This document shows, piece after piece, positions 20,951 to 26,203 of a DNA stretch of 64,000 nt. A program made the position numbers and the translations under genes. Origin of the DNA: Escherichia coli. Its GTDB lineage: Bacteria; Pseudomonadota; Gammaproteobacteria; Enterobacterales; Enterobacteriaceae. Where the stretch lies: NCBI RefSeq assembly GCF_041248615.1, contig NZ_CP158426.1. The stretch is one strand, 5' to 3'. The notes below the pieces were generated by a model. That model was given only the letters and a program-made list of their open reading frames with translations. It did not search any database and was not told the DNA's origin. How positions within the stretch are numbered: the first letter of the stretch is position 1; each line of letters starts with the position of its first letter.

Positions 20951-21664
20951 ATGCGACACATTTTTCAACGATTATTGCCCCGACGGCTGTGGCTGGCAGG
21001 GCTGCCATGTCTGGCATTGCTGGGTTGCGTGCAGAGTCACAATAAACCAGCCATTGATACGCCAGCAGAAGAAAAAATTCCGGTTTATCAACTGGCTGAC
21101 TATCTTTCTACTGAATGTAGCGACATCTGGGCGCTGCAAGGTAAATCAACCGAAACCAATCCGCTTTACTGGCTGCGGGCGATGGATTGTGCTGATCGTT
21201 TAATGCCTGCGCAGTCGCGTCAGCAAGCCCGCCAATATGACGACGGCAGCTGGCAAAATACCTTTAAACAAGGGATTTTGCTCGCCGACGCCAAAATTAC
21301 GCCGTATGAGCGCCGCCAGCTGGTCGCGCGCATTGATGCGCTAAGTACCGAGATCCCGGCACAGGTTCGCCCTCTGTATCAACTCTGGCGCGACAGTCAG
21401 GCGCTGCAACTGCAACTGGCGGAAGAGCGCCAACGCTACGGCAAGCTCCAGCAATCCAGCGACAGCGAGCTGGATACTTTGCGCCAGCAATATCACGTTC
21501 TACAGCAGCAACTGGAACTCACCACCCGCAAGCTGGAAAACCTGACTGATATTGAACGCCAGCTCTCGACCCGCAAACCGGCTGGAAATTTCTCGCCGGA
21601 TACGCCACACGAGAGTGAAAAGCCCGCGCCATCCACCGATGAGGTCACTCCTGATGAGCCATAA
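20951..21664 (+). CDS. qseG: outer-membrane lipoprotein QseG
   Basis: MRHIFQRLLPRRLWLAGLPCLALLGC... with lipobox; 237 aa; between glrK and glrR. Confidence 0.88.
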   Translation: MRHIFQRLLPRRLWLAGLPCLALLGCVQSHNKPAIDTPAEEKIPVYQLADYLSTECSDIWALQGKSTETNPLYWLRAMDCADRLMPAQSRQQARQYDDGSWQNTFKQGILLADAKITPYERRQLVARIDALSTEIPAQVRPLYQLWRDSQALQLQLAEERQRYGKLQQSSDSELDTLRQQYHVLQQQLELTTRKLENLTDIERQLSTRKPAGNFSPDTPHESEKPAPSTDEVTPDEP

Positions 21665-22988
21665 ACCTGCGCATTTATTATTGGTCGATGACGATCCGGG
21701 ATTGCTGAAACTGCTTGGCCTGCGCCTGACCAGCGAAGGCTACAGCGTGGTCACGGCGGAAAGTGGTGCTGAAGGATTACGGGTACTGAATCGCGAAAAA
21801 GTAGATTTAGTTATCAGCGACCTGCGGATGGATGAAATGGATGGTATGCAGCTGTTTGCTGAAATCCAGAAAGTGCAGCCGGGAATGCCGGTAATTATTC
21901 TTACCGCACATGGTTCTATTCCCGATGCCGTTGCTGCAACACAGCAGGGAGTGTTCAGTTTCCTCACCAAGCCTGTCGATAAAGATGCGCTATATCAGGC
22001 AATTGACGATGCGCTGGAACAATCCGCGCCAGCCACCGATGAACGCTGGCGCGAGGCGATTGTCACCCGCAGCCCGCTGATGCTGCGTTTGCTGGAACAG
22101 GCGCGGCTGGTGGCGCAATCAGACGTTAGCGTTTTGATTAACGGCCAGAGCGGCACCGGGAAAGAGATTTTCGCCCAGGCTATCCACAACGCCAGCCCGC
22201 GCAACAGCAAGCCATTTATTGCTATTAACTGTGGCGCATTACCCGAGCAATTGCTGGAGTCGGAGCTATTTGGTCATGCGCGTGGCGCGTTTACTGGCGC
22301 TGTCAGCAATCGCGAAGGTTTATTCCAGGCGGCGGAAGGCGGTACGCTATTTCTCGATGAGATTGGCGATATGCCCGCACCGTTGCAGGTCAAACTGCTG
22401 CGCGTGTTGCAGGAGCGTAAAGTGCGCCCGCTGGGCAGTAACCGCGATATTGATATCGACGTGCGGATTATTTCCGCCACTCACCGCGACCTGCCAAAAG
22501 CGATGGCGCGCGGGGAATTCCGCGAAGATCTCTATTACCGCCTCAACGTTGTCAGCCTGAAAATTCCGGCACTGGCGGAGCGCACAGAAGACATTCCGCT
22601 ACTGGCAAATCACCTGTTGCGCCAGGCGGCAGAGCGACATAAACCGTTTGTCCGCGCGTTCTCTACCGATGCGATGAAACGCCTGATGACCGCGAGCTGG
22701 CCGGGTAATGTGCGCCAGTTGGTCAACGTGATTGAACAGTGCGTGGCGCTGACCTCATCTCCGGTGATTAGTGATGCGCTGGTGGAGCAGGCGCTGGAGG
22801 GTGAAAATACGGCGCTGCCAACCTTTGTTGAGGCACGTAATCAGTTTGAACTCAACTATTTGCGTAAGCTGCTGCAAATCACCAAAGGCAACGTCACCCA
22901 CGCGGCGAGAATGGCGGGGCGCAACCGGACAGAATTTTATAAACTGCTTTCCCGACACGAGCTGGATGCAAACGATTTCAAGGAATGA
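21654..22988 (+). CDS. glrR: sigma-54-dependent response regulator GlrR (QseF)
   Basis: [21 protein letters not shown]..., 444 aa; receiver domain, AAA+ sigma-54 activator domain with GAFTGA, C-terminal HTH; overlaps the qseG stop. Confidence 0.93.
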
Positions 22989-23431: not shown

Positions 23432-24622
23432 TCACAGCACCTTATGCGGGCCAAAGCATTCGTAATGAATGTTTTCCTGCTTCACGCCCAGATCCACTAA
23501 CTGTTTCGCGGCAAACTGCATGAAGCCAACCGGGCCGCAGAGATAGAACTGCATTGTCGGATCGCTGAACGCACCTTCCAGTTTGCTCAAATCCATCAGA
23601 CCTTCGCTATCAAACTGACCTTTAGCGCGATCGGCTTCGCTTGGCTGACGATACCAGGTGTGCGCGGTAAAGCGCGGCAGTGCTTGCCCCAGTTCCTTAA
23701 CTTCATCGGCAAAGGCGTGAACATCGCCATTTTCTGCCGCATGGAACCAGTTCACTTGTGCTGTGTGGCCAGCTTTTGCCAGCGTGTCGAGCATTGCCAG
23801 CATTGGCGTTTGACCGACACCGGCAGAGATTAACGTCACTGGTGTGTCATCTGCGACAGCCATAAAGAAATCACCTGCTGGAGCAACCAGTTTCACGACA
23901 TCGCCAACATTGGCGTGATTGTGCAGCCAGTTGGATACCTGCCCACCCTCTTCGCGTTTCACCGCAATACGATAGCCTTTGCCATCCGGTTTGCGAGTCA
24001 AAGAGTACTGACGAATTTCCTGATGCGGGAAACCTTCCGGCTTCAGCCAGACGCCGAGATATTGCCCCGGACGGTATTCTGCCACTGCGCCACCGTCGAC
24101 CGGCTCCAGTTCGAAGCTGGTGATAAGTGCGCTGCGCGGTGTTTTAGCCACAATGCGGAAATCGCGAGTACCTTCCCAGCCACCGGCTTTGCTGGCGTTT
24201 TCGTTATAGATTTCCGCCTCGCGATTGATAAATACATTAGCCAGTACGCCATAGGCTTTACCCCACGCGTCCAGCACTTCCTGGCCCGGGCTGAACATTT
24301 CGTCCAGCGTCGCCAACAGGTGTTCACCGACAATGTTGTACTGTTCCGGTTTGATCTGGAAGCTGGTGTGCTTCTGCGCGATTTTTTCTACCGCTGGCAG
24401 CAGCGCAGGCAGGTTTTCAATATTACTGGCGTAGGCGGCAATAGCGTTAAACAGGGCTTCACGTTGATCGCCATTGCGCTGGTTACTCATGTTAAAAATT
24501 TCTTTGAGTTCTGGGTTATGAGTAAACATACGGTCGTAGAAATGGGCGGTTAACTTTGGCCCCGTTTCCACCAGTAAAGGGATGGTGGCTTTTACTGTAG
24601 CGATGGTTTGAGCGTCAAGCAT
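23432..24622 (-). CDS. hmp: flavohemoprotein (nitric oxide dioxygenase)
   Basis: [17 protein letters not shown]..., 396 aa; globin plus FAD/NAD reductase domains. The 7-codon extension in the track ORF overlaps the NsrR operator. Confidence 0.95.
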
Positions 24623-24644
24623 ATGGTCTTCCTTTTTTTGCATC

Positions 24645-24671
24645 TTAATTGATGTATCTCAAATGCATCTT
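24645..24671 (-). promoter_or_regulatory. NsrR operator in the hmp promoter
   Basis: Minus strand reads AAGATGCATTTGAGATACATCAATT, an 11-1-11 inverted repeat matching the NsrR consensus, immediately upstream of hmp. Confidence 0.65.
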
Positions 24672-24949
24672 ATAAAAAATAGCCCTGCAATGTAAATGGT
24701 TCTTTGGTGTTTTTCAGAAAGAATGTGATGAAGTGAAAAATTTGCATCACAAACCTGAAAAGAAATCCGTTTCCGGTTGCAAGCTCTTTATTCTCCAAAG
24801 CCTTGCGCAGCCTGAAGGTAATCGTTTGCGTAAATTCCTTTGTCAAGACCTGTTATCGCACAATGATTCGGTTATACTGTTCGCCGTTGTCCAACAGGAC
24901 CGCCTATAAAGGCCAAAAATTTTATTGTTAGCTGAGTCAGGAGATGCGG

Positions 24950-26203
24950 ATGTTAAAGCGTGAAATGAACATTGCCGATTATGATGCCGAACTGTGGCAG
25001 GCTATGGAGCAGGAAAAAGTACGTCAGGAAGAGCACATCGAACTGATCGCCTCCGAAAACTACACCAGCCCGCGCGTAATGCAGGCGCAGGGTTCTCAGC
25101 TGACCAACAAATATGCTGAAGGTTATCCGGGCAAACGCTACTACGGCGGTTGCGAGTATGTTGATATCGTTGAACAACTGGCGATCGATCGTGCGAAAGA
25201 ACTGTTCGGTGCTGACTACGCTAACGTCCAGCCGCACTCCGGCTCCCAGGCTAACTTTGCGGTGTACACCGCGCTGCTGGAACCAGGTGATACCGTTCTG
25301 GGTATGAACCTGGCGCATGGCGGTCACCTGACTCACGGTTCTCCGGTTAACTTCTCCGGTAAACTGTACAACATCGTTCCTTACGGTATCGATGCTAGCG
25401 GTCATATCGACTACGCCGATCTGGAAAAACAAGCCAAAGAACACAAACCGAAAATGATTATCGGTGGCTTCTCTGCATATTCCGGCGTGGTGGACTGGGC
25501 GAAAATGCGTGAAATCGCTGACAGCATCGGTGCTTACCTTTTCGTTGATATGGCGCACGTTGCGGGCCTGGTTGCTGCTGGCGTCTACCCGAACCCGGTT
25601 CCTCATGCTCACGTTGTTACTACCACCACTCACAAAACCCTGGCGGGTCCGCGCGGTGGCCTGATCCTGGCGAAAGGTGGTAGCGAAGAGCTGTACAAAA
25701 AACTGAACTCTGCCGTTTTCCCTGGTGGTCAGGGCGGTCCGTTGATGCACGTAATCGCCGGTAAAGCGGTTGCTCTGAAAGAAGCGATGGAGCCTGAGTT
25801 CAAAACTTACCAGCAGCAGGTCGCTAAAAACGCTAAAGCGATGGTAGAAGTGTTCCTGGAACGCGGCTACAAAGTGGTTTCCGGCGGCACTGATAACCAC
25901 CTGTTCCTGGTTGATCTGGTTGATAAAAACCTGACCGGTAAAGAAGCTGACGCCGCTCTGGGCCGTGCTAACATCACCGTCAACAAAAACAGCGTACCGA
26001 ACGATCCGAAGAGCCCGTTTGTGACCTCCGGTATTCGCGTGGGTACTCCGGCGATTACGCGTCGCGGCTTCAAAGAAGCAGAAGCGAAAGAACTGGCTGG
26101 CTGGATGTGTGACGTGCTGGACAGCATCAATGATGAAGCGGTTATTGAGCGCATCAAAGGTAAAGTTCTCGACATCTGTGCACGTTACCCGGTTTACGCA
26201 TAA
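24950..26203 (+). CDS. glyA: serine hydroxymethyltransferase
   Basis: [22 protein letters not shown]..., 417 aa; PLP-binding region [14 protein letters not shown]. Confidence 0.97.

What the first reader, a model, noticed from the sequence alone, without database searches (positions are those of the whole stretch)
24623..24949. NsrR operator overlaps the over-extended hmp ORF, supporting the shorter start
The 11-1-11 inverted repeat AAGATGCATTTGAGATACATCAATT (minus strand, 24645-24671) lies inside the 7-codon N-terminal extension of track ORF 23432..24643. This argues that translation starts at 24622 ([10 protein letters not shown]...) and that the upstream ATG is within the promoter/operator.
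Basis: partly seen in the sequence, partly recalled or inferred. Interest (0 to 1): 0.2.

Follow-up and report, generated by a model that had tools for sequence, protein, structure and literature searches.

The report
Known hmp promoter and NsrR operator
This is the well-studied E. coli hmp (nitric-oxide detoxifying flavohaemoglobin) promoter with its published NsrR repressor site.

Summary
The window is E. coli chromosome, and 24623-24949 is the glyA-hmp divergent intergenic region. It does not lie inside the 7-codon extension (24643-24623); it ends 6 nt upstream of the upstream ATG. Only a weaker third half-site, AAGATGCAAAA (24646->24636, already listed in the literature), covers that ATG. 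The mapped transcription start is 24659, so the upstream ATG is at +17 of the mRNA, in the 37-nt leader and not in the promoter. Translation from 24622 is still right on better grounds:
- RefSeq and PDB 1GVH both start at MLDAQ.
- Distant flavohaemoglobins align from that residue.
- AGGAAG lies 5 nt upstream of 24622, and the upstream ATG has no Shine-Dalgarno sequence.
- The upstream ATG is missing or out of frame in nearly all other genera and in two Escherichia species.
- 1,424 complete E. coli genomes carry A8 instead of A7 in the leader, which breaks the frame without changing Hmp.
All of this is already known and the interest is low.

The parts
24691..24696 (-). -35 hexamer TTTACA of the hmp promoter (-37..-32 relative to the start at 24659)
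   Evidence: Consensus scan TTTACA-18-TAAGAT. TTTACA is invariant in the 7-species alignment and is seen in most orthologous loci.
24667..24672 (-). -10 hexamer TAAGAT (-13..-8), lying inside the left arm of the NsrR site
   Evidence: It is correctly placed 7 nt upstream of the mapped start.
24659..24659 (-). hmp transcription start (A), equivalent to MG1655 2685798
   Evidence: The base is marked as the experimentally mapped start in Rodionov et al. 2005 Fig. S3. Coordinates were mapped through. I could not re-verify it in a genome-wide dataset.
24649..24671 (-). NsrR operator, 11-1-11 imperfect inverted repeat AAGATGCATTT-G-AGATACATCAA (-12..+11)
   Evidence: Identical to the published site. 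Matrix rank 2 of 63,978. Conserved in 84 of 87 orthologous loci. The Salmonella equivalent was used for EMSA and modelling.
24649..24662 (-). FNR-box-like TTGAGATACATCAA (9 of 10 match to TTGAT-N4-ATCAA), nested in the right half of the NsrR site (-3..+11)
   Evidence: one of 4 one-mismatch matches in the window against 2.2 expected, so not significant alone. A predicted FNR site at hmp with prior binding data but no ChIP-seq peak is reported in Myers et al. 2013. It is marked in Rodionov Fig. S3.
24636..24646 (-). Third, isolated NsrR-like half-site AAGATGCAAAA (+14..+24), a direct repeat of the left arm 25 bp downstream. It contains the upstream ATG.
   Evidence: Direct repeat TAAGATGCA x2 with spacing 25. 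Listed as 'hmp (19) AAGATGCAAAA, ln P -7.08' in Mehta et al. 2015 Table 2. Half-site matrix rank 101 of 127,980. Present only in Escherichia species.
24641..24643 (-). Upstream in-frame ATG (+17..+19 of the mRNA) that creates the 7-codon over-extension. It is not a functional start.
   Evidence: No Shine-Dalgarno upstream. Out of frame in the A8 form carried by 1,424 E. coli genomes and in two Escherichia species. The 403-aa form is called on only 13 contigs.
24633..24639 (-). A7 run in the leader, polymorphic: A8 in about 26% of complete E. coli genomes, and A5 or A8 in other Escherichia species
24628..24633 (-). Shine-Dalgarno AGGAAG, 5 nt before the true start
   Evidence: An SD-like core precedes the conserved ATG in 86 of 87 orthologous loci.
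23432..24622 (-). hmp (hmpA) coding sequence, 396 aa plus stop, NO-inducible flavohaemoglobin
   Evidence: RefSeq CDS limits. PDB 1GVH aligns residues 1-396 to ORF residues 8-403. The 396-aa form is found on at least 1,000 contigs.

Best explanation
This is the sigma-70 promoter, operator region and 5' leader of E. coli hmp. RNA polymerase uses TTTACA-18-TAAGAT and starts at the A at window 24659. A dimer of the Fe-S repressor NsrR binds the 23-bp imperfect palindrome 24671->24649, which covers the -10 hexamer and the start site (-12..+11), and so blocks polymerase. Nitric oxide damages the NsrR cluster, the repressor leaves, and hmp is transcribed. An FNR-like box nested in the right arm gives an anaerobic repression input. 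The mRNA has an unstructured 37-nt leader. Ribosomes start at the ATG at 24622, which is preceded by AGGAAG at 5-nt spacing, and produce the 396-aa protein. The ATG at 24643 is an accidental in-frame triplet inside a weak third NsrR-like half-site in the leader. The 403-aa ORF is an artefact of taking the longest ORF. Shown here: the sequence geometry, identity with the published site, conservation, frame-breaking polymorphism, and annotation and structure starts. Taken from the literature: NsrR occupancy in vivo, the mapped start and the NO response. Inferred: repression by steric occlusion, and non-use of the upstream ATG.
For: The locus is E. coli hmp-glyA in 5,425 of 5,426 complete genomes. 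RefSeq hmpA and MG1655 hmp start at window 24622. PDB 1GVH residue 1 equals ORF residue 8, and Ralstonia and yeast flavohaemoglobins align from their residue 2 to ORF residue 9. The site is identical to the published hmp NsrR site with a ChIP-seq peak. Its leave-one-out matrix rank is 2 of 63,978. The promoter hexamers were found by scan and fit the mapped start. A site scoring at least 17 lies within 110 nt upstream of hmp in 84 of 87 orthologous loci, and 86 of 87 have an SD before the conserved ATG. The upstream ATG at codon -7 is present only in E. coli, E. albertii and E. whittamii, plus one unrelated Buttiauxella. Escherichia sp. E1V33 (A8) and MOD1-EC7003 (A5) break the frame. Within E. 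coli, 3,656 genomes have the A7 leader and 1,424 the A8 leader, and the three variant genomes whose annotation I read (two A8, one with a 29-nt duplication) keep the same annotated hmpA start. That duplication is in strain MS14384. The 396-aa form is on at least 1,000 contigs and the 403-aa form on 13. The leader is not more structured than shuffles, z = 0.62.
Against: The transcription start rests on one secondary source, an emphasised base in a supplementary alignment. The primary papers (Poole 1996, Cruz-Ramos 2002, Bodenmiller and Spiro 2006) were not available, and genome-wide tables were truncated before this locus or held no hmp entry. No direct N-terminal protein data were retrieved here. 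My recollection that Vasudevan et al. 1991 sequenced the N-terminus of the purified protein is memory only. The orthologue search pattern contained the ATG, so conservation of that ATG is by construction; the independent 7-species alignment does show it. The E. coli operator is the weakest among the orthologues (17.7 against 22-32).
Confidence: 0.93

Rival explanations
1. One reading: the upstream ATG at 24643 lies in untranscribed promoter/operator DNA because the 11-1-11 NsrR repeat sits inside the 7-codon extension, and that is why it cannot be a start codon.
For: A weak NsrR-like half-site (AAGATGCAAAA, 24646->24636) does cover the ATG.
Against: The 23-bp repeat ends at 24649, upstream of the extension. 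The mapped start is 24659, so the ATG is at +17 of the transcript. The -10 hexamer found by scan (24672-24667) fits that start.
Confidence: 0.03
2. Dual initiation: in A7 strains a minor 403-aa Hmp isoform (MQKKEDH-Hmp) is made from the AUG at +17 alongside the 396-aa protein.
For: The AUG is transcribed, in frame and stop-free in the window and in 3,656 genomes. The leader is A-rich and unstructured, which can allow weak SD-independent initiation. An automatic caller (JGI/IMG) chose this start on 13 contigs.
Against: There is no SD-like sequence 4-12 nt upstream (ACATCAATTAAG). The frame is broken in 1,424 E. coli genomes and two Escherichia species, and the ATG is absent in Citrobacter, Salmonella, Klebsiella and the other genera sampled. 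Globin-domain homologues begin at the shorter start.
Confidence: 0.04
3. The third half-site at +14..+24 is a working auxiliary NsrR site, for a second dimer or a single-motif site, that strengthens repression in Escherichia. The upstream ATG exists because the NsrR motif contains ATG.
For: Exact 9-nt direct repeat of the left arm, TAAGATGCA, 25 bp away. Listed as a possible motif under the ChIP-seq peak. Single 11-bp motifs are reported to be able to bind NsrR (Partridge 2009, as cited). The half-site is kept in all the Escherichia species sampled (one reads TAGATGCAAAA). It might compensate for the weak right arm of the E. coli palindrome.
Against: Matrix rank is only 101 of 127,980. About 0.1 such hits are expected by chance in a 60-nt neighbourhood on both strands (my estimate from the ranks). 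It is not conserved outside the genus. No footprint or mutational data were found.
Confidence: 0.15
4. The inverted repeat acts mainly as an FNR operator rather than an NsrR operator.
For: TTGAGATACATCAA matches the FNR consensus at 9 of 10 positions. Prior FNR binding and regulation at hmp are cited.
Against: No FNR ChIP-seq peak at hmp in vivo. The FNR box is conserved only in close relatives, whereas the NsrR site is conserved widely. The one-mismatch FNR pattern is not enriched in the window (4 found, 2.2 expected). NsrR is described as the strong repressor.
Confidence: 0.05

Closest known systems
E. coli K-12 / CFT073 hmp promoter NsrR site (Rodionov 2005; Bodenmiller and Spiro 2006; Partridge 2009; Mehta 2015)
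   Same: Identical 23-bp sequence, the same position 49 nt upstream of the hmp ATG, the same second motif AAGATGCAAAA 19 nt (motif centre) upstream of the ATG, and the same divergent glyA neighbour.
   Different: Nothing; this is the same locus. The window carries the A7 leader allele, as MG1655 does.
Salmonella Typhimurium hmp NsrR operator AAGATGCATTTGATATACATCAT
   Same: The same 11-1-11 layout, the same distance to the start codon and the same -35/-10 context.
   Different: Two substitutions in the right arm. Salmonella has no third half-site and no upstream in-frame ATG.
ytfE NsrR operator AAGATGCATTTAAAATGCATCTT (near-perfect palindrome)
   Same: The left arm is identical to that of hmp.
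   Different: The hmp right arm has 4 mismatches to the perfect palindrome (no hit at 3 or fewer mismatches). These coincide with an FNR-like box.

Membership tests
NsrR (Rrf2-family) operator of Enterobacteria | 23-bp 11-1-11 inverted repeat matching the NsrR position weight matrix | tested here: met
   Leave-hmp-out matrix score 18.3, rank 2 of 63,978, reached by 5 of 200 shuffles. Identical to the published site.
NsrR (Rrf2-family) operator of Enterobacteria | Position overlapping core promoter elements or the transcription start, as expected for a repressor | tested here: met
   The site spans -12..+11 and includes the -10 hexamer TAAGAT.
NsrR (Rrf2-family) operator of Enterobacteria | Conservation upstream of orthologous target genes | tested here: met
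   84 of 87 hmp loci from other species have a site scoring at least 17 within 110 nt. Also seen in the 7-species alignment.
NsrR (Rrf2-family) operator of Enterobacteria | Occupancy by NsrR in vivo or in vitro, and NsrR-dependent, NO-relieved repression | not testable with these tools
   From the literature only: a ChIP-seq peak between glyA and hmp in CFT073, ChIP-chip in K-12, and an EMSA on the Salmonella site. No E. coli footprint was retrieved.
Genuine translation start (hmp ATG at 24622) | Shine-Dalgarno sequence at 4-10 nt spacing | tested here: met
   AGGAAG ends 5 nt before 24622. There is none before 24643. An SD is present in 86 of 87 orthologues.
Genuine translation start (hmp ATG at 24622) | Homologues begin at the aligned position, and the upstream segment does not behave as coding sequence | tested here: met
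   PDB homologues align from residue 1-2. Indels of 1, 2 and 29 nt occur in the 21-nt segment within Escherichia.
Genuine translation start (hmp ATG at 24622) | Directly determined protein N-terminus | not testable with these tools
   The deposited 1GVH sequence starts MLDAQ, but that is a deposited sequence and not an N-terminal determination. The Vasudevan 1991 N-terminal sequencing is recalled from memory only.

The most novel reading that the evidence does not exclude
The Escherichia-specific third half-site AAGATGCAAAA at +14..+24 is a functional auxiliary NsrR site. The A7/A8 leader polymorphism (about 67% against 26% of complete genomes) then matters in two ways. It changes the spacing between that site and the ribosome-binding site. 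It also converts the +17 AUG from an in-frame start into a 9-codon upstream ORF (MQKKGRPYA*) whose stop overlaps hmp codons 2-3. Together these would give lineage-specific (for example ST131/B2) tuning of Hmp output.
Probability: 0.07. Interest if true: 0.3.

Novelty: already known. Interest (0 to 1): 0.06.

Why it matters
It matters only as annotation hygiene. A longest-ORF track over-extends hmp by 7 codons, glyA by 2 and glrR by 34. Standard annotation already has the right starts. The case is a useful caution that an operator near an ATG is not evidence about translation starts. The decisive evidence was the ribosome-binding site, homologue N-termini and frame-breaking natural indels.

Tried and rejected
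- I tried to read the primary promoter papers (Cruz-Ramos 2002 PMC126088, Poole 1996 PMC178372, Bodenmiller and Spiro 2006 PMC1347358). None is held.
- I looked for the hmp start in genome-wide datasets: Cappable-seq, ROSE, Kim 2012, Shigella M90T and Rend-seq. The files were truncated before 2.68 Mb, held no hmp entry, or were absent.
- A full-text search for the operator sequence found only Mehta 2015.
- A perfect-palindrome search with up to 3 mismatches missed the site, because the right arm has 4 mismatches. I replaced it with a weight-matrix scan.
- The half-site consensus with up to 2 mismatches is not enriched in the window: 24 found against 23.9 expected.
- The repeat finder at seed 6 did not recover the imperfect palindrome.
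- Leader RNA folding showed no structure beyond chance, so I rejected a structural explanation for start-site choice.
- Linear coordinate transfer to MG1655 failed around 36.5 kb, because the window carries an IS-like insertion there.

Full report
**What the locus is.** The 701 bases around the finding match 5,425 of 5,426 complete E. coli genomes, at 99% identity or more in 5,399 of them. The match always lies on the chromosome between hmpA (NO-inducible flavohaemoprotein) and glyA. In RefSeq the hmpA CDS is 1,191 nt (396 aa plus the stop codon). Transferring its coordinates to the window puts its first base at 24622 on the minus strand and puts glyA's first base at 24950 on the plus strand. 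MG1655 gives the same picture, with hmp at 2685835-2687025. The finding's span 24623-24949 is therefore exactly the glyA-hmp divergent intergenic region.

**Checking the observation.** The mechanical ORF 23432..24643 (403 aa, [12 protein letters not shown]...) and the internal ATG at 24622 are both real. The quoted 25-mer is on the minus strand at 24671->24647. The 11-1-11 unit proper is 24671->24649: AAGATGCATTT-G-AGATACATCAA. The extension occupies 24643..24623. The repeat therefore lies entirely upstream of the extension, and both the title ('operator overlaps the over-extended ORF') and the statement 'lies inside the 7-codon extension' are wrong for this repeat. A separate half-site, AAGATGCAAAA (24646->24636), does cover the upstream ATG. 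It forms a 9-nt exact direct repeat (TAAGATGCA) with the left arm at 25-bp spacing.

**Whether it exceeds chance.** As an inverted repeat alone it is not clearly beyond chance. Its arms are 7 of 11 complementary, a level reached by 0.9% of all positions in the window. As an NsrR site it is. I built a palindromic weight matrix from 18 published 11-1-11 sites (Mehta et al. 2015, Table 4), leaving hmp out.
- The hmp site scores 18.3 and ranks 2nd of 63,978 positions. Only 5 of 200 shuffles of the window reach that score.
- The left arm is the best half-site in the whole window, rank 1 of 127,980. The third half-site ranks 101st, and the right arm is poor at rank 1,058.

**Comparison with published data.** Mehta et al. 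2015 list the hmp site as TTGATGTATCTCAAATGCATCTT with a ChIP-seq peak. This is the exact reverse complement of 24671->24649. Their Table 2 lists two motifs under the glyA/hmp peak: 'hmp (44) AAGATGCATTT, ln P -15.25' and 'hmp (19) AAGATGCAAAA, ln P -7.08'. The distances fit the motif centres at 24666 and 24641. The Salmonella equivalent, AAGATGCATTTGATATACATCAT, has been used for EMSA and modelling. The site was first predicted by Rodionov et al. 2005.

[quoted passage not shown] That base is window 24659 (MG1655 2685798). It fits the only minus-strand sigma-70 match in the region, TTTACA-18-TAAGAT, whose -10 hexamer (24672-24667) ends 7 nt upstream. Relative to this start the features lie as follows:
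- NsrR site: -12..+11
- nested FNR-like box TTGAGATACATCAA: -3..+11
- third half-site: +14..+24
- upstream ATG: +17..+19
- AGGAAG: +27..+32
- hmp ATG: +38

The upstream ATG is therefore in the transcribed 37-nt leader, not in the promoter. I could not re-verify the start in the primary papers or in genome-wide tables, so it rests on one secondary source plus the promoter geometry.

**Why 24622 is nevertheless the start.**
1. Annotation and structure. RefSeq uses 24622. PDB 1GVH residues 1-396 align to ORF residues 8-403. The Ralstonia (1CQX/3OZU) and yeast (4G1B) flavohaemoglobins align from their residue 2 to ORF residue 9.
2. Ribosome-binding site. AGGAAG ends 5 nt before 24622. The 12 nt before 24643 (ACATCAATTAAG) have no Shine-Dalgarno sequence.
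3. Other species. A DNA-pattern scan of one genome per species returned 87 hmp loci.
   - 86 have an SD-like core before the conserved ATG.
   - An in-frame ATG at codon -7 occurs only in E. coli, E. albertii and E. whittamii, plus one unrelated Buttiauxella.
   - Citrobacter, Salmonella, Klebsiella, Kluyvera and the other genera sampled lack the E. coli upstream ATG; a few carry unrelated in-frame ATG or GTG codons at other positions.
   - Two further Escherichia species have A8 or A5 in place of the A7 run, which breaks the frame.
   - One caveat: the scan pattern contained the ATG, so conservation of that codon in this set is by construction. The independent alignment shows it too.
4. Variation within E. 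coli.
   - The 66-nt stretch 24615-24680 is identical in 3,656 complete genomes.
   - A variant with one extra A (A8) is identical in 1,424 genomes, including ST131 and Seattle 1946.
   - In the A8 variant the upstream ATG is out of frame. It opens a 9-codon ORF ending at a TGA that overlaps hmp codons 2-3, as read.
   - One strain, MS14384, has a 29-nt tandem duplication.
   - RefSeq keeps the same hmpA start in all three variant genomes I read (ST131 and Seattle 1946, both A8, and MS14384).
   - Indels that are not multiples of three, at high population frequency, exclude a coding role for the 21-nt segment.
5. Public gene calls. The 396-aa sequence is found on at least 1,000 contigs. The 403-aa form is found on 13, all JGI/IMG automatic calls.
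6. Leader structure. The leader is no more structured than shuffled sequence (z = 0.62), so nothing masks the true start.

**Mechanism.** The established mechanism comes from the literature cited; none of it was tested here. NsrR holding its Fe-S cluster binds the palindrome over the -10 hexamer and the start site and represses transcription. NO modifies the cluster and relieves the repression. FNR has an overlapping box, but no ChIP-seq peak was seen at hmp in vivo, and the box is conserved only in close relatives. Steric occlusion of RNA polymerase is my inference from the -12..+11 position. The E. coli operator scores lowest among the orthologues (17.7 against 22-32), because its right arm has diverged towards the FNR consensus. 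Whether the Escherichia-only third half-site compensates for this is untested. I give that about 15%.

**Verdict.** The element is real and correctly named, and the preferred start codon is correct. All of this is already in the literature and in standard annotation. The geometric claim and the logic connecting operator to start codon are wrong. Novelty: already known. Interest: low.

Noticed in passing
window 24633-24639 (minus strand): The A-run in the hmp leader is polymorphic in E. coli. A7 (as in the window and MG1655) is exact in 3,656 complete genomes, and A8 is exact in 1,424, including ST131 and Seattle 1946. With A8 the +17 AUG opens a 9-codon upstream ORF (MQKKGRPYA*) whose stop overlaps hmp codons 2-3.
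   Followed up: partly
L100 (E. coli MS14384), equivalent to window 24636-24664: One clinical strain carries a 29-nt tandem duplication in the leader. It repeats the right part of the NsrR/FNR site and the AAGATGC half-site, giving an extra operator copy.
   Followed up: no
window 24944-24952 (+ strand): The mechanical glyA ORF is also over-extended, by 2 codons: MRMLKREMN from 24944, where RefSeq starts at 24950 (MLKREMN).
   Followed up: partly
window 21552-22988 (+ strand): The mechanical glrR ORF starts at a TTG and is 478 aa, whereas the RefSeq glrR CDS is 1,335 nt (444 aa). This is the same longest-ORF artefact, here by 34 codons.
   Followed up: no
window 36589-36611 (+ strand): The best NsrR-matrix hit in the whole window is AACATTCATTTGAAGTAAAACTT, score 23.9, above every one of 200 shuffles. 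It sits on codons 2-9 of an ORF with weak, below-cutoff similarity to IS3-family transposase (NCBIfam 53 bits against a cutoff of 160), with another half-site-like AAGGTGCAGTT 5 nt upstream. Simple coordinate transfer from MG1655 and CFSAN061763 would place the end of yphB here, but the window sequence reads differently, which suggests an insertion.
   Followed up: partly
window 24649-24671 compared with loci L003-L095: The E. coli/Escherichia hmp operator has the lowest NsrR matrix score of all orthologues (17.7 against 22-32). The deviating right-arm bases are the ones that create the FNR-like TTGAG-N4-ATCAA box, which suggests a trade-off between two overlapping repressor sites.
   Followed up: partly
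window 24733-24770 and about 24816-24831 (minus strand): The block ACGGATTTCTTTTCAGGTTTGTGATGCAAATTTTTCAC is strongly conserved across enterobacteria in the published alignment, and it shares GATGCAAA with the leader half-site (direct repeat D2). From memory it corresponds to the MetR sites of the glyA-hmp control region, and ACGCAAACGATTACCT further upstream resembles the glyA PurR box. Neither assignment was tested here.
   Followed up: no
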